DNA of 36,042 nucleotides from an uncultured Parabacteroides sp. GTDB taxonomy: Bacteria > Bacteroidota > Bacteroidia > Bacteroidales > Tannerellaceae. Location of the stretch: the NCBI GenBank assembly GCA_944323815.1, contig CALUTX010000001.1, forward strand, positions 1-36,042, given 5' to 3'. Position numbers and translations under genes: made by a program. A model generated the notes under the pieces. The model was not told where the DNA came from. It saw only the letters and a list, made by a program, of their open reading frames with translations, and made no database searches. Of this stretch, positions 1 through 34,727 are shown in pieces; within the stretch, counting starts at the first letter, position 1, and every line of letters begins with the position of its first letter.

Positions 1-1083
1 ATCCACATCACAGACCTTTCATGGGGCCGCGTAACGCATCCGGAAGAGATCGTTCAGTTAGACCAGAAAATCAACGTGGTTATCCTCGACTTCGACGACG
101 AGAAGAAACGGATTGCACTTGGTTTGAAGCAGTTGACACCGCATCCTTGGGACGCTTTGGATCCGAATTTGAAAGTTGGCGACAAAGTAAAAGGAAAAGT
201 TGTTGTCATGGCAGATTACGGTGCATTTGTCGAGATCGCTCCGGGCGTAGAAGGATTAATCCACGTTTCCGAAATGTCTTGGACACAGCACTTGCGTTCG
301 GCTCAAGATTTCATGAAGGTAGGCGACGAAGTGGAAGCTGTTATCTTGACCTTGGATCGCGAAGAGCGTAAAATGTCGCTGGGTATCAAGCAGCTGAAAC
401 CGGATCCATGGGAGCATATCGAAGAACGTTTCCCGGTTGGTTCACGCCACATGGCCAAAGTTCGCAACTTCACCAACTTCGGCGTATTTGTTGAAATCGA
501 AGAGGGTGTCGACGGTTTGATTCACATTTCCGATTTGTCTTGGACGAAGAAAATCAAACATCCGTCTGAATTCACACAAATCGGTGCAGACATCGAAGTT
601 CAGGTATTGGAAATCGACAAGGAAAACCGCCGCTTGAGCTTAGGTCACAAACAATTGGAAGAAAATCCTTGGGACGTATTCGAAACAATCTTTACGGTTG
701 GTTCTATCCACGAAGGAACAATCATCGAAATGTTGGATAAAGGGGCTGTCGTTTCGTTGCCTTATGGCGTAGAAGGTTTCGCAACTCCGAAACACCTGAT
801 CAAAGAAGACGGTTCGCAAGCTCAGGTAGATGAGAAATTGCCGTTCAAGGTTATCGAATTCAACAAAGAAACCAAGCGCATCATCCTTTCTCACAGCCGC
901 GTTTTCGAAGACGAACAGAAGAGCGTAAAGAAAGAGGCTGGCGAAAAGAAATCTTCGTCTAAACGCGCAAGCAAGAAAGAAGACGAAACTCCGATTTTGA
1001 CCGGTACAGTTGAAAAAACAACATTGGGCGACATCGAAGAGTTGGCCGCACTGAAAGAAAAACTCTCAGGAAAACAATCCTAA
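1..1083 (+). CDS. rpsA: 30S ribosomal protein S1, 5'-truncated by window edge
   Basis: Frame 1 is open from base 1 (IHITDLSWGRVTHPEE...). It has repeated S1 domains (YGAFVEIAPGVEGLIHVSEMSW; FGVFVEIEEGVDGLIHISDLSW) and the Bacteroidetes C-terminus EKTTLGDIEELAALKEKL. Confidence 0.98.
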   Translation: MHITDLSWGRVTHPEEIVQLDQKINVVILDFDDEKKRIALGLKQLTPHPWDALDPNLKVGDKVKGKVVVMADYGAFVEIAPGVEGLIHVSEMSWTQHLRSAQDFMKVGDEVEAVILTLDREERKMSLGIKQLKPDPWEHIEERFPVGSRHMAKVRNFTNFGVFVEIEEGVDGLIHISDLSWTKKIKHPSEFTQIGADIEVQVLEIDKENRRLSLGHKQLEENPWDVFETIFTVGSIHEGTIIEMLDKGAVVSLPYGVEGFATPKHLIKEDGSQAQVDEKLPFKVIEFNKETKRIILSHSRVFEDEQKSVKKEAGEKKSSSKRASKKEDETPILTGTVEKTTLGDIEELAALKEKLSGKQS

Positions 1084-11324: not shown

Positions 11325-11370
11325 AAAACAAAATGACCGCAGATTCATTCCGTTTGTATCTGCGGTCATT
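11325..11370 (-). terminator. Intrinsic terminator of the 683-aa lipoprotein gene
   Basis: Perfect 13-bp stem AATGACCGCAGAT (11332-11344)/ATCTGCGGTCATT (11358-11370), followed by a U-rich tract on the minus strand. Confidence 0.85.
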
Positions 11371-11386
11371 CGTATACTATAGAGGC

Positions 11387-13438
11387 TTAGAAAGCGAGAA
11401 TGCAGCGGACGCGGTAAGCACATTCTCCATTACCTTTACTGTAAGCATCCTTATCGTCAAAAGACAGATAAAGGCTATTGCTTTTAGGACTGAGTTTTAT
11501 TTGAGAACCATTATCTGCATCGCCTTCTGAAGAAGTTTGATAGTCACAACTGTTATTGTAAACATGTAATTTGGCAGAAGCTCTTACTTTTCCAAAATAA
11601 GCGTTAATAGCTTCTTCTATATCAGTTCCTTCAGGTTCGGTTTGCATGCTGAAGAAATCAGAAACTTTTTTGAAATTACTTGTTTCAAATGAAACACCGG
11701 CTAAATTTGCCAGTAAATCGGCCCATTGTCCCATACTGGGTAAGAACCAACCAGTTGTCCCTTCGGGTAAATTGACATTATTAGCGTCAGCATACCGTTT
11801 CGCCGCATAAAAAGCGGGATATTTCTCTACATCTCCATATTTCCCTTCATTCCAAATCGTTTGACTATTCTTTAAACCACTGATATCATTATATAATGTA
11901 GTAATATCATCTGTCAAACAATTAGTCAGATCTTCATCATGCATGGCAGGTTTGCTTTTATCGGGGTCAATATTGATAGTTAGTCCTTCATTCTCTTTAG
12001 GGTCATTGCCTGCACACCATAAAAGATTATAATCGCTTTTTTTATAATCATCTTTACTCGGATTTGCTCCGCTATTATGATAATTGATATTTCCCGGAAC
12101 AGTAGCATCGCTCAACGCCATTGCCAATCCGGTCGGCGTATCAACACCTTTCGCGGCCAATACGGCTTTTTCTGCTTCACCGATGCGATCTGTTCCCAGA
12201 TAGAAGATAATACCGACCGGCGTTTTACCGGAAATCAACTTGGTAGAATAACTCCCGTCACTGTACAAAATGTCACCCACTTTCATCTTTTCCATAAAAC
12301 GAATGGCACGAGTCGTAACGTACGTGCTTCCGTCATGCGTTGTCAATGTAGCACGAATGATATATGTTTCGCCGGATTCCATCCCTTTGTATTTTACATT
12401 TATATAATACTCGTCCGAGCCATCTACGGTTGTATTGACAAATACACCGATTTTCTTATCTTCATCATCCGCGCGGGTTGTAATAAAATTCTCATCGTTA
12501 CCAGCTTGGTCGTCGGACGATTGGGTAACAATCTCCGCTATCAGATTGGATATATCCTCTTTTTGTATACCTTCGGGATAATGAAAATAGAGTTGATAGG
12601 AATAGTAGACCGTTGGAGCTGTTATCATGATTGAAACGGGATCATTTTCTTCATACGTTTCTGTCCCTTTATATTCTTCTGAAGAAAGGAGATAGAAACC
12701 GTTAGCTTCTGTTGCCTCACCATAATAAGGTACTTTAAACGTTTGCCCATTCTCTAACGTGAACGTCACATAATCTGTACCAAGTGTAACCGTAATCCCT
12801 TGCGCCGAACCTCCGTTCGAGCCTGCCGGGCCTTGTGGGCCTTGTGGACCGGTCGGTCCCTGCGGGCCGGTTGCGCCGGTATCGCCTTTCGGGCCTGTGA
12901 CGCGCGTCCACGTCTTGCCATTGTCCACGCTAAGGTAAACAATGCTGTTTTCGGGGTTCTTGCCTTCGTCGGCACCGGTCAGGACAGCATCGTCGGGCAG
13001 GTCTTTCCCTAATTTCAAAATGGGTGTTGGAGCTGATGCACCATCTTCCCCGTTGGCTCGGATGGGGTTGCCTTCGCTGTCGAGCAGCAACTCGCCATTC
13101 TGCGTCCAATACCAATTGCCGTCTTCGCCCTGCGTGAGGCTGATACCGGCGTCGGCACCGTTGTAGAGCGTGATGGATTCCGACTGCTTGAAGTCGATGC
13201 GGTAGCCGATGGTGTCTCCCTCTTCGGTAAGCGTCGTCACGGCAGTGATGTAGTCCATCGTGTTGATTAACTCTTGCAAACCGGCAATCGTTTCGTTGGC
13301 TTGCTTTTGCCAGGTCTCCAGCGCAGCGATACGCGCCTCGTGGTCGTTCACCCGATTCCATAGTTCATCGTCATCATACTTGCAGGAACTGATTGCAATG
13401 AGGGCGAACGCCATCCAAACAAAGTGTTTCAGTTTCAT
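11387..13438 (-). CDS. Surface lipoprotein: DUF4988 (PL29-N-terminal-like) coiled-coil domain, collagen-like linker, C-terminal DUF1566/C-type-lectin-like adhesin domain
   Basis: Lipobox ISS-C followed by KYDDDEL; [18 protein letters not shown] (DUF4988-like); 9 Gly-X-Y triplets; [32 protein letters not shown] and terminal YRVRCILAF. Confidence 0.8.
12815..12895 (-). repeat. Collagen-like (Gly-X-Y)9 coding repeat
   Basis: [27 protein letters not shown]. Confidence 0.92.
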
Positions 13439-13825
13439 AATTCACTCGTTTTTTGTTTCCCCATGCCAGTTCCCACGCAGGAGTTGGTTACCAAATTAAC
13501 TCGTTTGAAACGGGCATATATGCGAAAAGCGTGGGAACTGTACTCTGTCACTTATCCCACGTTTCCAGGCCTTCGCATTGCCTACAGCATAAGGATAAGC
13601 AACGAAGAAAGCCCACGCCGATGGTATAGTCATACAACTGTGCGCCATGAATAAGCGCACAGTGCATTCTTATACAACCCCGCAGGCATCTACCGTTGCC
13701 TTATCTTCTTATGCTGTTTCTAAAGTTGCGAAGTTCGGAAACATAGAAGATAAAGCGTTAAGTAAACGCCTTCTACATATATGTCTGTTGCCCACCCCTC
13801 TTAAAAAAATCGGCGTGAGTAACGG
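13439..13825 (-). ncRNA. Candidate large structured 5' leader RNA of the lipoprotein gene
   Basis: Several long-range complementary segments (see findings) between a -7 promoter and the ATG; no credible ORF. Confidence 0.6.
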
Positions 13826-13828
13826 ATG

Positions 13829-13836
13829 CAAATGTA
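13829..13836 (-). promoter_or_regulatory. -7 promoter element for leader plus lipoprotein gene
   Basis: CAAATGTA reads TACATTTG on the minus strand. Confidence 0.65.
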
Positions 13837-13933
13837 TAGAAAAAACTTTGGATTAAGAGTAAATTCCTTCAGAATATACAAATTTTATTCCCTCGGTCAA
13901 ACATAAACTTAGTTTTTACCGTACCTATTCTTT

Positions 13934-14013
13934 AATCAGCATCGTTGATTGTACAATCAGCGTCGGCGTTTTTATAATCAACGACGCTGATTATACAAAC
14001 ACCGACGCTGATT
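13934..14013. repeat. 21-bp-period array of 17-bp palindromic AATCAGCGWCGCTGATT-like units, copy 1
   Basis: Units at 13934, 13955, 13976 and 13997, separated by 4-bp spacers (GTAC, TTAT, ATAC). Confidence 0.85.
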
Positions 14014-14127
14014 TGAGAATGGGATGAGGGCGGGAATAAAAGATACTCCGATAGTCTGTACTTCTGTTTGCGAGGAAGATAAATAGTTAATCTTGTGGGA
14101 ACACTCGGAGATGCCCAAAGAATAGCG

Positions 14128-14135
14128 TACATTTG
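14128..14135 (+). promoter_or_regulatory. -7 promoter element for fkp
   Basis: TACATTTG, 38 nt upstream of ATG 14174. Confidence 0.65.
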
Positions 14136-14173
14136 TTTTCTAAAATGACTGATTATATCCATATAAAAAAGAA

Positions 14174-17017
14174 ATGAAGAAATTACTTTCTTTACCGCCT
14201 AACTTGGTCGGTAGTTTTCATACAATCACAAACAGCGACCCGGCTGAATGGTTTTGCGCGTCCGACCCCATCGGGGCTCGTTTGGGGTCAGGAGGAGGAA
14301 CCACTTGGATACTGGAGCGTTGCTACCGCAACGAGCAAACGGCACGGACATTCGAGGAGTGGTTAGCCGCAGAAAAACGAATCATCCTCCATGCCGGCGG
14401 TCAAAGCCGGCGTCTGCCCGGTTATGCGCCATCCGGGAAAATCCTGACGCCCATCCCGGTCTTCCGCTGGGCACGCGGACAAAAGTTGTCGCAAGACCTG
14501 CTTTCGCTCCAGCTTCCGTTGTATGAAGAAATCATGCGCAAAGCGCCGGACTCCCTGCATACGTTGATTGCCAGCGGCGATGTGTACCTGCGCCACAACG
14601 AACCGTTGCAGGCGATTCCGGAAGCCGATGTCGTCTGTTACGGTTTATGGGTAGACCCCGCGCTTGCCACCCGGCATGGCGTTTTTGTGTCTGACCGGAC
14701 TACGCCCAACCGGCTCGATTTCATGTTGCAAAAACCCTCTTTCGAAACGTTGCAGCAGTTAGCGAGTTCGCATTTCTTCCTGATGGATATCGGCGTATGG
14801 CTGCTCAGCGACCGTGCCGTCCGCCTGTTGGCGCAACGTTCCTATCAACCGGACGGAAAGCAGATGAAGGCATACGACCTGTATGCGGAATTCGGCTGTG
14901 CGTTAGGCGTTCACCCGCGCATCGCAGACAGGGAGCTGAACCAGCTGAGCGTGGCGATTCTTCCCCTTCCGGGAGGCGAGTTTTATCATTACGGAACCAG
15001 TCGCGAACTCATTTCATCGACCTTGTCCGTACAAAATCTCGTGCACGACCAACGCCTCATCATGCAACGGGCAGTCAAGCCTCATCCCGCCATGTTCGTC
15101 CAGAACGCTCTTGTGCAGTGTCCGCTTACTTCCCAAAACTCGGAACTTTGGATTGAGAACAGTTTTGTGAACGACCAATGGCGGTTAAACCGGCAGCACA
15201 TCATCACCGGCGTGCCGGAAAATAACTGGCAGCTACACATTCCGGCGGGAATCTGCATCGACGTCGTTCCCATCCGCCAAGCGGAATGGGCCGCTCGGCC
15301 GTATGGATTCGCAGACCCGTTCAAAGGTGCGACAAACGCCCCGGAAACTCAATTCTTGGGACAACCGTTTGCCGAATGGAAAGCCCGGCGCGACCTCATT
15401 GTGCCCGACTACCCGGACATACAAGACGCGCCGTTGTTCCCTGTTTGCAACAGCATCGAGGAAACAGGGCTCGTCATGCGTTGGATGACTTCCGAGCCGT
15501 CACTGGCCGAAGGCAAAGCTATTTGGGAGAAACGAACCAAACTTTCTGCCAATCAACTGTCAGACCAAGCCAACCTCTCCCGGCTGTTTGCCCAGCGCGA
15601 ACACTTCAGGAAAAACAACTGGTATGCGTTGGCAGCCAATTACAACAAAAGCGTTTTCTATCAATTGGATTTAGACGACGCGGCGGCGGCATTCATCCGT
15701 AACTCGATTCCGCTTCCGGCGCCCCTCCCACACGATGCGCCTTTATTGACGCGCATTCAAGACCATTCGTTCCGTGCCCGCGTCCTAAAGGCGACCGACT
15801 TCAAGCAGAGCGAAAGGGAAGAGCAACAGGCCTTTTCCTTGTTACGGGAGGGATTAATCCAGACCGTAAGCCATGAAAAGCAATCCCCTCGCCTCGATGT
15901 GTACCGCGACCAAATCGTTTGGGCACGCAGTCCGGTCCGTATCGACTTGGCCGGCGGCTGGACCGACACGCCTCCCTATTGTCTGTATGCTGGCGGCAAC
16001 GTGGTCAATGTAGCCATCGAGCTGAACGGGCAGCCGCCGTTGCAGGTCTACATCAAGCCGTCGCCCGAACACCGGCACATCATCCTCCGCTCCATCGACT
16101 TGGGCGCCATGGAATGCGTTTCGACATGGGAAGAACTGCGCGATTTCAGAAAAGTGGGTTCTCCTTTCTCTATTCCCAAGGCGGCGTTGGCTTTGGCGGG
16201 ATTCGTCCCTGAATTTTCGGCCGACCGTTATGCTTCCTTGAAAGAGCAGTTGGAGGCATTCGGATGCGGATTGGAAATCACCCTGCTGGCAGCGATTCCC
16301 GCAGGCTCGGGACTGGGGACAAGTTCTATTCTGGCGGCAACGGTGTTAGGGGCGTTGTCCAATTGCTGCGGCCTTGCCTGGGACAAAAACAAAATCGGAA
16401 ACCGGACGTTAATCCTCGAACAGCTGCTTACTACCGGCGGAGGCTGGCAAGATCAATATGGAGGGATTCTGCACGGACTTAAACTTCTGCAAACAGACGA
16501 AGGGTTGCTTCAAGCCCCCGTTATCCGATGGCTACCGGAACAGCTCTTTACCGAACCGGAATATCAGGCTTGTCACCTGCTTTACTACACCGGCATCACC
16601 CGCACGGCTAAAGGCATTCTTGCCGAAATCGTCCGGCAGATGTTCCTCAATAGTGGGCCGCATCTTCTCCTTTTATCGGAGATGAAGACCCATGCGTTAG
16701 ATCTTTCCGAAGCCATCTTGCATGGCGATTTCCAAACTTACGGGCGACTGGTCGGCAAAAGCTGGGGACAAAACAAAGCACTCGATGCGGGTACGAATCC
16801 GCCTGCCGTAGAAGCCATTATATCCCGGATTCAGGACTATGCCTTAGGCTACAAGCTGCCGGGAGCCGGAGGGGGCGGCTATCTCTACATCACAGCCAAA
16901 GACCCGGAAGCCGCGTTGCACATCAAACGCATCCTGACCAACGAGCCACTCAACGCCAATGCCCGGTTCGTCGACATGAATCTGTCGGATAAAGGCTTGC
17001 AAATAAGCCGCTCCTGA
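14174..17017 (+). CDS. fkp: Bifunctional L-fucokinase/GDP-L-fucose pyrophosphorylase
   Basis: MKKLLSLPPNLV start, LGSGGGT and HAGGQSRRLP; GHMP kinase motifs PVRIDLAGGWTDTPP, PAGSGLGTSS, GGGWQDQ and GAGGGG; 947 aa. Confidence 0.97.
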   Translation: MKKLLSLPPNLVGSFHTITNSDPAEWFCASDPIGARLGSGGGTTWILERCYRNEQTARTFEEWLAAEKRIILHAGGQSRRLPGYAPSGKILTPIPVFRWARGQKLSQDLLSLQLPLYEEIMRKAPDSLHTLIASGDVYLRHNEPLQAIPEADVVCYGLWVDPALATRHGVFVSDRTTPNRLDFMLQKPSFETLQQLASSHFFLMDIGVWLLSDRAVRLLAQRSYQPDGKQMKAYDLYAEFGCALGVHPRIADRELNQLSVAILPLPGGEFYHYGTSRELISSTLSVQNLVHDQRLIMQRAVKPHPAMFVQNALVQCPLTSQNSELWIENSFVNDQWRLNRQHIITGVPENNWQLHIPAGICIDVVPIRQAEWAARPYGFADPFKGATNAPETQFLGQPFAEWKARRDLIVPDYPDIQDAPLFPVCNSIEETGLVMRWMTSEPSLAEGKAIWEKRTKLSANQLSDQANLSRLFAQREHFRKNNWYALAANYNKSVFYQLDLDDAAAAFIRNSIPLPAPLPHDAPLLTRIQDHSFRARVLKATDFKQSEREEQQAFSLLREGLIQTVSHEKQSPRLDVYRDQIVWARSPVRIDLAGGWTDTPPYCLYAGGNVVNVAIELNGQPPLQVYIKPSPEHRHIILRSIDLGAMECVSTWEELRDFRKVGSPFSIPKAALALAGFVPEFSADRYASLKEQLEAFGCGLEITLLAAIPAGSGLGTSSILAATVLGALSNCCGLAWDKNKIGNRTLILEQLLTTGGGWQDQYGGILHGLKLLQTDEGLLQAPVIRWLPEQLFTEPEYQACHLLYYTGITRTAKGILAEIVRQMFLNSGPHLLLLSEMKTHALDLSEAILHGDFQTYGRLVGKSWGQNKALDAGTNPPAVEAIISRIQDYALGYKLPGAGGGGYLYITAKDPEAALHIKRILTNEPLNANARFVDMNLSDKGLQISRS

Positions 17018-20947: not shown

Positions 20948-21006
20948 ATATTATTTCGACTATACTGAATAAGATTTATCGAGAAGAATCACAAACGGAC
21001 TAAAAT

Positions 21007-21078
21007 AAAAAAGAAAAGGTTGTCATCACGACAACCAATCTTCATTGCTAACCTTAAATCTAATACCATGAAAAACAC
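21007..21078 (-). ncRNA. Candidate stand-alone ~72-nt sRNA (resembles the multicopy Bacteroides paralogous sRNA family)
   Basis: TATATTTG -7 box at 21083-21090; body GUGUUUUUCAUGGUAUUAGAUUUAAGGUUAGC; terminator GGUUGUC-gugau-GACAACC plus U-tract. Confidence 0.7.
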
Positions 21079-34482: not shown

Positions 34483-34591
34483 CGCAAAAATCTATAATTT
34501 GTATACGTTAAATTCCTATATTTTCCGCCTCCCAAAAAGAAAATCCTCTTTTCCCCGTACCTAAAACGAATTACCTCCGCAACAATTTTTA

Positions 34592-34671
34592 AATCAGCGA
34601 CGGAAATCATATAAACAGCGACGGCGTTTATACAATCGTCACCGCTGATTGTATAAACGCCGTCGCTGTTT
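34592..34671. repeat. 21-bp-period palindromic array, copy 2, containing a perfect 25-bp inverted repeat
   Basis: Units at 34592, 34613, 34634 and 34655; AAACAGCGACGGCGTTTATACAATC (34613-34637) pairs with GATTGTATAAACGCCGTCGCTGTTT (34647-34671). Confidence 0.88.
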
Positions 34672-34727
34672 TAAGATTTTCTCCTATGCCCGTTCGTTTG
34701 TAACGGGCTGTACTCCAAAAAGATTTC

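What the first reader, a model, noticed from the sequence alone, without database searches (positions are those of the whole stretch)
13439..13836. ~385-nt structured leader with nested and mutually exclusive helices: candidate undescribed riboswitch/attenuator-like RNA
Seen (plus-strand coordinates; transcript is minus): a nested long arm made of 13561-66/13737-42 (GTTTCC/GGAAAC), 13571-77/13727-33 (CTTCGCA/TGCGAAG) and 13584-604/13694-717 (ACAGCATAAG..GATAAG.CAACG versus CGTTGCCTTATCTTCTTATGCTGT), capped by 13637-45/13655-63 (ACTGTGCGC/GCGCACAGT). There is a side hairpin at 13744-75 and a perfect 12-bp helix 13467-78/13529-40 (CAGTTCCCACGC/GCGTGGGAACTG) ~30 nt from the ATG. Segment 13612-22 (CCCACGCCGAT) is complementary both to the transcript 5' end (13809-17, ATCGGCGTG; pseudoknot-like) and to 13529-35 (GCGTGGG), where it would compete with the start-proximal helix. 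Inference: a three-way strand-exchange switch controlling expression of a surface adhesin. I recall similar leaders before Bacteroidales fimbrial/lipoprotein genes but cannot assign an Rfam family.
Basis: partly seen in the sequence, partly recalled or inferred. Interest (0 to 1): 0.8.

Follow-up and report, generated by a model that had tools for sequence, protein, structure and literature searches.

The report
Kissing-hairpin attenuator leader of Bacteroidales
This is one copy of a folded RNA leader, absent from Rfam, that many Bacteroidales bacteria carry in several copies ahead of accessory, mostly exported-looking proteins; its two hairpin tips stay complementary through dozens of letter codes, and it likely works as a switch that either stops transcription or zips into one long rod and lets the gene be read.

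Summary
All listed helices are present (fold z -6.2). The leader belongs to a multi-copy Bacteroidales family: 7 copies in this genome, and 37 of 301 order genomes match a strict pattern. No Rfam model matches it.

It encodes two exclusive folds. One is hairpin 1 plus a terminator-type hairpin 2 with a U tract. The hairpin tips (13733-27, 13577-71) are complementary in 161 of 178 copies across about 40 codes, nearly always with a YUNR U-turn motif. Both folds covary.

Published B. thetaiotaomicron dRNA-seq tables list 11 paralogues as an unexplained sRNA duplication group. Their TSSs lie 5 nt after the TAnnTTTG box, and 5 of 9 annotated RNAs end just past the terminator stem.

Best reading: a cis transcription attenuator whose loop-loop kiss triggers strand exchange into the antiterminator rod; the signal is unknown.

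The parts
13829..13836 (-). Bacteroidota -7 promoter box TACATTTG; TSS predicted at about 13824
   Evidence: Sequence; box found in 100 of 124 homologues; homologous TSSs mapped 5 nt after the box
13787..13823 (-). Accessory 5' hairpin with CACGCCGAU (13817-09), complementary to 13622-14; lineage-limited
   Evidence: co-occurrence with its partner 16 both / 11 partner only / 2 5' only / 71 neither
13737..13771 (-). Hairpin 1 5' arm (D): GGCGUUUAC 13770-62, core 13756-45, variable toehold 13744-37. Pairs with E in the two-hairpin state and with G in the rod
13722..13736 (-). Apex of hairpin 1: 3-bp stem and loop 1 CUUCGCAAC (13733-25) with a YUNR motif
13681..13717 (-). Hairpin 1 3' arm (E, E'): toehold 13717-08, core 13709-13695, E' 13693-81. 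The antiterminator strand that captures F and H in the rod
13620..13680 (-). Variable central hairpin (cap 13663-55/13645-37), apex of the rod; nearly absent in the minimal family form
   Evidence: (loop 1 to H distance 47-159 nt)
13583..13618 (-). Hairpin 2 5' arm: H GCGUGGGC 13618-11, F core 13603-13593, toehold 13593-84
13568..13582 (-). Apex of hairpin 2: GGC/GCC stem and loop 2 AAUGCGAAG (13579-71), complementary to loop 1 over 7 nt
13525..13566 (-). Hairpin 2 3' arm: toehold 13566-59, G core 13557-47, I UCCCACGC 13536-29, and a short U tract 13528-25 (4 U in 8 nt here)
13467..13478 (-). J segment with GGGAAC, about 33 nt before the ATG; pairs with I when I is freed
11387..13438 (-). Controlled gene: 683-aa predicted lipoprotein with N-terminal DUF4988, a short Gly-X-Y repeat and a weak FISUMP-like C-terminus
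11325..11369 (-). Terminator-like hairpin and U tract closing the gene; speA has its own TAnnTTTG box, so the unit is likely monocistronic
   Evidence: Sequence printed

Best explanation
This is a portable promoter-plus-leader module that encodes two mutually exclusive folds and likely acts in cis as a transcription attenuator on the gene behind it.

Shown by sequence and covariation: hairpin 1 (D:E, loop 1) and hairpin 2 (H-F:G-I, loop 2, then a U tract) are near-antisense copies of each other. The RNA can therefore form either both hairpins or one rod (D:G, loop 1:loop 2, E:F, E':H).

Inferred mechanism: hairpin 1 folds first and holds the antiterminator strand E. As F and loop 2 emerge there is a race. 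If the U-turn loops kiss, the copy-specific toeholds beside them zip and branch migration gives the rod; H is then taken, the terminator cannot close, and the gene is transcribed. The freed I segment then pairs with the GGGAAC loop about 30 nt before the ATG, which would lock the ON state or tune translation. If the kiss is late or blocked, hairpin 2 closes and a 200-320 nt RNA is released.

The input is probably kinetic (elongation speed, pausing, or anything that covers loop 1) rather than a metabolite. It has not been identified.
For: Loop code: with the loops called independently, 161 of 178 copies have at least 6/7 Watson-Crick pairs, and 41 of 59 distinct combinations do so versus a permuted mean of 3.4 (maximum 11 in 5000).

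Both folds are conserved on a 29-row alignment: two-hairpin state 95.8% of cells paired, 18 of 53 pairs with two-sided change; rod 87.3%, 29 of 65; slid controls 39-52%.

Swap test among copies sharing a code: rod-only toeholds pair better with their own partner in 130 and 131 of 132 copies (-9.9 vs -3.0 and -11.2 vs -3.1 kcal/mol); hairpin cores in 110 and 114 of 132. YUNR occurs in at least one loop in 42 of 43 codes versus a null of 30.2 (0 of 3000).

The states are near balance: in this copy rod -121.2, two hairpins -110.5 plus a -9.5 loop duplex; across the family the rod is lower than two hairpins plus kiss in 65 of 161. Hairpin 1 is the fold of the short nascent RNA.

Promoter box in 100 of 124; at least 6 T in 8 after I in 24 of 28 BLAST-derived copies. 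I:J covaries and GGGA sits a median 31 nt before the ATG.

B. thetaiotaomicron tables (PMC7366714 supplements): TSSs 5 nt after the box; 5 of 9 annotated RNAs end about 4-12 nt past I or past the listed alignment end; the same TSSs are called primary for genes 260-278 nt away.
Against: No mutation, probing or termination assay exists for any copy. At equilibrium H:I is never predicted (probability over 0.5 in 0 of 161), so termination needs kinetic trapping, which was not simulated. The rod could also nucleate from the central hairpin without a kiss.

This copy has a weak U tract (4 of 8). Four of 9 annotated B. thetaiotaomicron RNAs end elsewhere: two inside the 3' arm, one at 102 nt, one about 90 nt beyond. 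Only 1 of 9 was flagged with a terminator. Their 3' ends come from coverage drops, not 3'-end sequencing. Kin are not independent in any of the counts.
Confidence: 0.6

Rival explanations
1. Self-acting antisense switch. Released leader RNA, or a processed piece of about 90 nt holding only hairpin 2, kisses loop 1 of new transcripts from the same locus in trans. It captures E and forces termination, which makes more of itself. Loop code and toeholds would be the address.
For: U-turn loops typical of antisense/target pairs (PMC4152353 passage). About 40 codes, with 10 among 14 called copies in genome G336. Toeholds are copy-specific. Hairpin 2 plus the 5' half co-fold 10.7 kcal/mol below the separate parts. 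Two B. thetaiotaomicron copies have a TEX-enriched internal 5' end 1 and about 6 nt before H, seen only in later growth phases. P4 CI RNA is a precedent (PMC4825925 passage).
Against: No such internal end was found for four other copies searched. One of the two has a TAnnTTTG-like box 11 nt upstream and may be a promoter. Compensatory drift in cis explains the code diversity as well, and many copies within one genome share a code.
Confidence: 0.15
2. Post-transcriptional leader or stand-alone small RNA. The folds set mRNA stability or translation (through I:J near the start codon), or the short RNA acts on other targets, and termination is constitutive.
For: I:J covariation at a fixed distance from the ATG. 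Nine copies were annotated as sRNAs. The rod is the predicted equilibrium fold.
Against: It does not explain conserved exclusive pairing of H with both E' and I, or the U tract directly after I. A co-oriented ORF of 60 aa or more was called behind 139 of 159 copies, a median 58 nt downstream.
Confidence: 0.12
3. Selfish or portable promoter-terminator repeat whose symmetry serves its spread (DNA hairpin or recombination site), not regulation.
For: Multi-copy, with unrelated genes up- and downstream; tandem copies; the same flank carries different cargo in viral contigs L043, L052 and L062. Present before the small gene at the coaE-clpB locus in L278 and L282 but absent before B. thetaiotaomicron BT_4596 (UTR 19 nt).
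Against: One-sided changes listed in the helices are G-U type on the transcribed strand. It has a fixed orientation to promoter and gene and is transcribed in vivo. No integrase or transposase appeared among 42 of 69 upstream ORFs scanned.
Confidence: 0.08
4. Small-molecule riboswitch in which a ligand stabilises the kiss, as in guanidine-IV.
For: Same logic: a kiss between the first hairpin loop and the terminator loop opposes the terminator (PMC11611296 passages).
Against: The loop sequences vary freely as long as they pair. The invariant letters fall almost all in helices or beside them. Downstream genes share no metabolic theme. No Rfam hit.
Confidence: 0.05

Closest known systems
Zipper-type attenuator cATT of Bacillus plasmid pLS20 (PMC13401043; abstract and first part of the Discussion read)
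   Same: A central long stem is extended by pairing an upstream stem-loop with the terminator; antiterminator and terminator states are close in energy; the signal is unknown.
   Different: Here the exchange covers both whole hairpins, with complementary apical loops, variable toeholds and a downstream I:J helix. It lies in Bacteroidales ahead of single accessory genes, not ahead of conAn conjugation operons.
Guanidine-IV riboswitch (PMC11611296; passages read)
   Same: A kiss between the first hairpin loop and the terminator loop competes with terminator formation.
   Different: No conserved aptamer, about 40 loop codes, full conversion to a rod, unrelated downstream genes, no Rfam match.
Antisense-RNA attenuation of pT181/pIP501-type plasmids (recalled; U-turn role seen in a PMC4152353 passage)
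   Same: U-turn loop-loop contact followed by strand exchange decides terminator formation.
   Different: No conserved counter-promoter; sense and 'antisense' hairpins lie in one transcript.
Phage P4 CI RNA and P1 C4 RNA (P4 from a PMC4825925 passage; C4 recalled)
   Same: A leader-derived RNA has complementary sites up- and downstream in its own transcript, with premature termination.
   Different: No Rfam C4 match and not in phage immunity regions; processing and trans action are unproven here.
B. thetaiotaomicron sRNA duplication group BTnc235/169/163/198/047/166/262/042/006 (PMC7366714, supplementary file 4)
   Same: Same family: one listed site is identical to locus L191, and the printed sequences of BTnc042, 047, 163, 169, 235, 262 and the BT_3262 copy show its H, loop or I segments.
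   Different: Listed only as duplicated sRNA candidates. Six of the ids, searched in the paper library, occur in no main text.

Membership tests
Any Rfam 15 family | Match at gathering score | tested here: not met
   Window: only FopS at 21006-78. E up to 10 over 13300-14200: only sub-threshold models, mostly miRNA. 20 homologous loci: only a separate DUF805 RNA.
Transcription attenuator (terminator/antiterminator/anti-antiterminator) | Leader between own promoter and gene | tested here: met
   Box in 100 of 124 copies; TSSs of homologues mapped
Transcription attenuator (terminator/antiterminator/anti-antiterminator) | Intrinsic terminator hairpin with U tract | tested here: met
   H:I 7 bp, 99.5% paired; at least 6 T in 8 in 24 of 28 copies, only 4 in this copy
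Transcription attenuator (terminator/antiterminator/anti-antiterminator) | Conserved mutually exclusive antiterminator and protector helices | tested here: met
Transcription attenuator (terminator/antiterminator/anti-antiterminator) | Short RNAs ending at the terminator in vivo | tested here: inconclusive
   5 of 9 annotated B. thetaiotaomicron RNAs end there, by coverage drop; no data for this copy
Transcription attenuator (terminator/antiterminator/anti-antiterminator) | Read-through changes with a signal or with fold-locking mutations | not testable with these tools
   Needs reporters or in vitro transcription; the gentamicin ratio shift is only a hint
Guanidine-IV riboswitch | Kiss between first hairpin loop and terminator loop | tested here: met
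   (complementarity and covariation; the 3D contact itself is inferred)
Guanidine-IV riboswitch | Conserved aptamer sequence and guanidine-related downstream genes | tested here: not met
Zipper-type attenuator (cATT pLS20) | Central stem extended by pairing of upstream stem-loop with terminator | tested here: met
Zipper-type attenuator (cATT pLS20) | Precedes conAn-type conjugation operon of Gram-positive plasmids | tested here: not met
Counter-transcript antisense attenuation (pT181/pIP501 type) | Conserved convergent promoter making an antisense RNA | tested here: not met
   Opposite-strand TAnnTTTG in 20 of 124 copies, at scattered places; other promoter types not covered
Counter-transcript antisense attenuation (pT181/pIP501 type) | YUNR U-turn in a recognition loop | tested here: met
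   42 of 43 codes versus null 30.2
P4 CI / P1 C4 leader-derived antisense RNA | Processed internal RNA acting in trans | tested here: inconclusive
   Internal 5' ends at the foot of hairpin 2 in two copies, none in four others searched
Leader-peptide attenuator | Conserved short ORF before the protector strand | tested here: not met
   ATG within 25 nt before the D anchor in 38 of 155 copies versus 56 in shuffles

The most novel reading that the evidence does not exclude
A self-propagating, address-coded RNA switch. Each termination event releases a hairpin whose U-turn loop converts new transcripts of the same locus to the terminating fold. Cells would hold a heritable ON or OFF state for surface and defence genes with no protein or DNA inversion, and newly acquired genes would fire on entry until their own RNA builds up. 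About 40 loop codes and copy-specific toeholds would keep up to 15 switches per genome apart.
Probability: 0.15. Interest if true: 0.9.

Novelty: new variant of a known kind. Interest (0 to 1): 0.7.

Why it matters
Bacteroidales have few described cis-regulatory RNAs. This is an order-wide family, with 11 listed sites in the model B. thetaiotaomicron and a strict-pattern match in 31 of 61 Bacteroides genomes. It lies ahead of lipoproteins, LRR surface proteins, small regulators and some defence genes. It would reclassify a set of orphan 'sRNAs' as attenuator products and give a natural library of orthogonal loop-toehold RNA switches. It is directly testable in a genetically tractable strain with existing transcriptome maps. 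An earlier AI note of this scan reached the same family, so within the scan it is a repeat with new supporting tests.

Tried and rejected
Rfam at two thresholds and on 20 homologous loci found nothing for the leader. BLAST of plasmids found no match; phages gave one 94-nt partial match in an unannotated record.

Public RNA runs for homologue L278 were all contigs. Four were laid: two hold pieces that span the U tract but not the 5' half, one covers all in a single contig, one does not reach the leader. Strand, ends and level cannot be told, so this is not used.

A leader peptide and a conserved antisense promoter were not supported. An empty-site test failed: in 8 relatives the 7 kb upstream of speA holds neither the leader, the DUF4988 gene nor fkp. 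Two loose patterns on G693 gave only background.

The coaE-clpB copy could not be read in the B. thetaiotaomicron tables because that strain lacks the leader there. Six family motifs were not found in 6 of 8 supplementary files of PMC8040213; two files were not searchable. Prezza 2022 is not held.

The first loop call chose the best-pairing candidate and was replaced by independent calls. The GGY/RCC closing-stem counts follow from my pattern and are not used as evidence. The adhesin label for the gene rests only on sub-threshold collagen-repeat matches.

Full report
OBSERVATION. The minus-strand region folds far better than shuffles (-147.9 kcal/mol, z -6.19). It lies between a TACATTTG box (13836-29) and the ATG (13438) of a 683-aa predicted lipoprotein with DUF4988. 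The gene has its own terminator-like hairpin before speA. Rfam has no match for the leader at gathering score or at E up to 10, nor for 20 homologous loci.

FAMILY. A profile from 29 aligned copies finds 7 copies in this genome, 4 strong and 3 weak, with 4 loop codes. BLAST finds matches in 27 of 151 family genomes. A strict pattern for the 3' module matches 37 of 301 order genomes, with 1 control hit and up to 15 copies per genome. It matches 31 of 61 genomes of the genus of G693 (Bacteroides by the title of L191), and 0 of 250 other genomes drawn across the phylum. The genome-contig scan stopped at 120 stretches, and the 80 listed titles are mostly Bacteroidales. Of 41 viral stretches, at least 17 carry complementary loops. 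A minimal form of about 170 nt lacks the 5' and central hairpins.

NEIGHBOURS. Of 139 downstream ORFs, 108 have a hydrophobic N-terminus and 29 a lipobox-like motif by crude rules. Of 96 scanned, 57 have no Pfam hit; the rest include 8 BspA-type LRR, 2 DUF4988, 2 DUF4595, 2 MBOAT, AbiH, DUF2971, LytTR and T5orf172. Of 42 of 69 upstream ORFs scanned, 26 hit mostly unrelated housekeeping families and none an integrase. The module thus travels with single accessory genes.

TWO FOLDS. The rod is the equilibrium fold: H pairs upstream in 160 of 161 copies and with I in none. The same letters also form hairpin 1 (D:E) and hairpin 2 (H-F:G-I, then a U tract), and hairpin 1 is the fold of the nascent RNA up to 13640. 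On the alignment both states hold: two hairpins with kiss 95.8% paired, 18 of 53 pairs with two-sided change; rod 87.3%, 29 of 65; slid controls 39-52%. In this copy the rod is -121.2 kcal/mol and the two hairpins -110.5, with a loop duplex of -9.5. Across 161 copies the rod is lower than the bare hairpins in 152 and lower than hairpins plus kiss in 65. The kiss energy is a simple duplex estimate.

LOOP CODE. From 197 candidate modules, 178 allowed both loops to be called by separate rules; 19 were dropped. Of these, 161 have at least 6 of 7 Watson-Crick pairs, and 41 of 59 distinct combinations do, against 3.4 in permutations. The misses include miscalled loops and chance modules. In 42 of 43 codes one loop has a YUNR motif (null 30.2), the feature reported for antisense recognition loops (PMC4152353 passage). 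Beside the loops lie variable segments that pair only in the rod: own partner beats swapped partner in 130 and 131 of 132 copies, while the segments facing each other inside the hairpins do not pair (85 and 48 of 132). This is the layout of a kiss followed by toehold-driven strand exchange (inference).

3' END. At least 6 of the 8 bases after I are T in 24 of 28 BLAST-derived copies; this copy has 4. GGGA follows within 110 nt in 123 of 159 copies (21% in shuffles), a median 31 nt before the ATG. Its next three bases covary with those before CCC in I (0.60, 0.57, 0.50 versus 0.34, 0.35, 0.30). No conserved antisense promoter box (20 of 124, scattered) and no leader peptide were found.

IN VIVO EVIDENCE FROM A HOMOLOGOUS SET. 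In the supplements of PMC7366714 (rows and one part of file 4 read; main text by passages), a primary TSS at 3336815 has the promoter of locus L191, and a printed sequence is identical to its leader. Sheet 'sRNA_duplications' groups this site with ten others, nine annotated as sRNAs. Printed sequences confirm the family, including a further code and a compensated H:I pair. The seven TSS contexts seen for these sites lie 5 nt after TAnnTTTG, and three are called primary for genes 260, 271 and 278 nt away. By my hand count from the rows, BTnc042, 169 and 262 end 9, 6 and 12 nt after I. BTnc235 and 166 end about 7 and 5 nt after the listed alignment end, and BTnc166 carries a flagged terminator. 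Against this, BTnc047 and 006 end 19 and 34 nt early, BTnc163 is 102 nt, and BTnc198 runs about 90 nt beyond. Two copies show a TEX-enriched internal 5' end at the foot of hairpin 2 in later growth phases; four others searched show none. Under gentamicin two leader RNAs rise while their genes do not (PMC10994844, legend passages and 6 of 11 sheets); this lacks a control. No expression data exist for the window's own copy, and contigs laid on L278 were uninformative.

MECHANISM. Shown: promoter, two exclusive conserved folds, complementary U-turn loops, copy-specific toeholds, terminator layout, and short RNAs of matching length in a relative. Inferred: a cotranscriptional race in cis between closing hairpin 2 (termination) and kiss-triggered conversion to the rod (read-through), with I:J as a second step near the start codon; confidence 0.6. 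Rivals: trans self-silencing by released RNA (0.15), a post-transcriptional or sRNA role (0.12), a portable repeat (0.08), a ligand riboswitch (0.05).

COMPARISON AND NOVELTY. It works like the pLS20 zipper attenuator and shares the kiss-versus-terminator logic of guanidine-IV, but fails the defining context or aptamer of each. It resembles P4 CI in self-complementarity. Paper searches with Bacteroidales or Bacteroides plus structure and attenuation terms, and with six of the BTnc ids, found no description; a 2026 review names FopS as the only paralogous family in the passages seen. Limits: subscription papers are mostly not held, Prezza 2022 was unavailable, two files of PMC8040213 and nine of PMC10994844 were not searched, and bioRxiv supplements were not seen. 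An earlier AI note (e1-2978093), seen after my structural tests, names the same family; it is not independent support. Verdict: a real feature and a new variant of transcription attenuator, catalogued before only as duplicated sRNA candidates; interest 0.7.

Noticed in passing
window 13924-14023: A separate imperfect palindrome of about 100 bp built of CAGCGTCG-type units lies upstream of the promoter. It has copies on more than 25 contigs of this genome (output cut at 60 rows), including window 34585-34676; it looks like a REP/MITE-type repeat.
   Followed up: partly
window 21006-21078 (-): FopS sRNA (Rfam RF04319, 78.9 bits) between a glycosyltransferase gene and a bifunctional-nuclease-domain gene.
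   Followed up: no
L099:1386-1454 and downstream of the L084 copy: A DUF805 RNA motif follows directly behind the leader in L099; L084 shows a similar stretch. Two RNA motifs appear to be stacked in one 5' UTR.
   Followed up: no
G000:C17:13442-17658: One copy follows ORFs that look like an integrase, a small HTH protein and a replication protein (labels recalled from the sequences, no family search): a small integrative element with cargo.
   Followed up: no
L033, L035, L093, L157, L185, L191, L193: Several copies precede small stand-alone LytTR (Pfam hit for L033) or HTH-like proteins (label recalled); L033 holds two leaders 920 nt apart. Possible regulators or feedback.
   Followed up: no
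PMC10994844 supplementary file 2, sheet f: Taking sheet f as gentamicin versus control, leader RNAs rise (BTnc235 +3.2, BTnc169 +1.6 log2) while their genes do not (BT_4141 -0.55, BT_3039 +0.24), and BT_3262 falls (-1.47). Six of 11 sheets were seen and no control sRNAs.
   Followed up: partly
L191, TSS +142..546 and +377..607: The annotated B. thetaiotaomicron BT_2678 (134 aa) starts inside the leader and is probably spurious; the likely gene is the 76-aa HTH-like ORF at +377.
   Followed up: partly
L150, L176: Copies with complementary loops in records named Tenacibaculum and Sphingobacterium, outside Bacteroidales, although 0 of 250 other phylum genomes matched the strict pattern.
   Followed up: no
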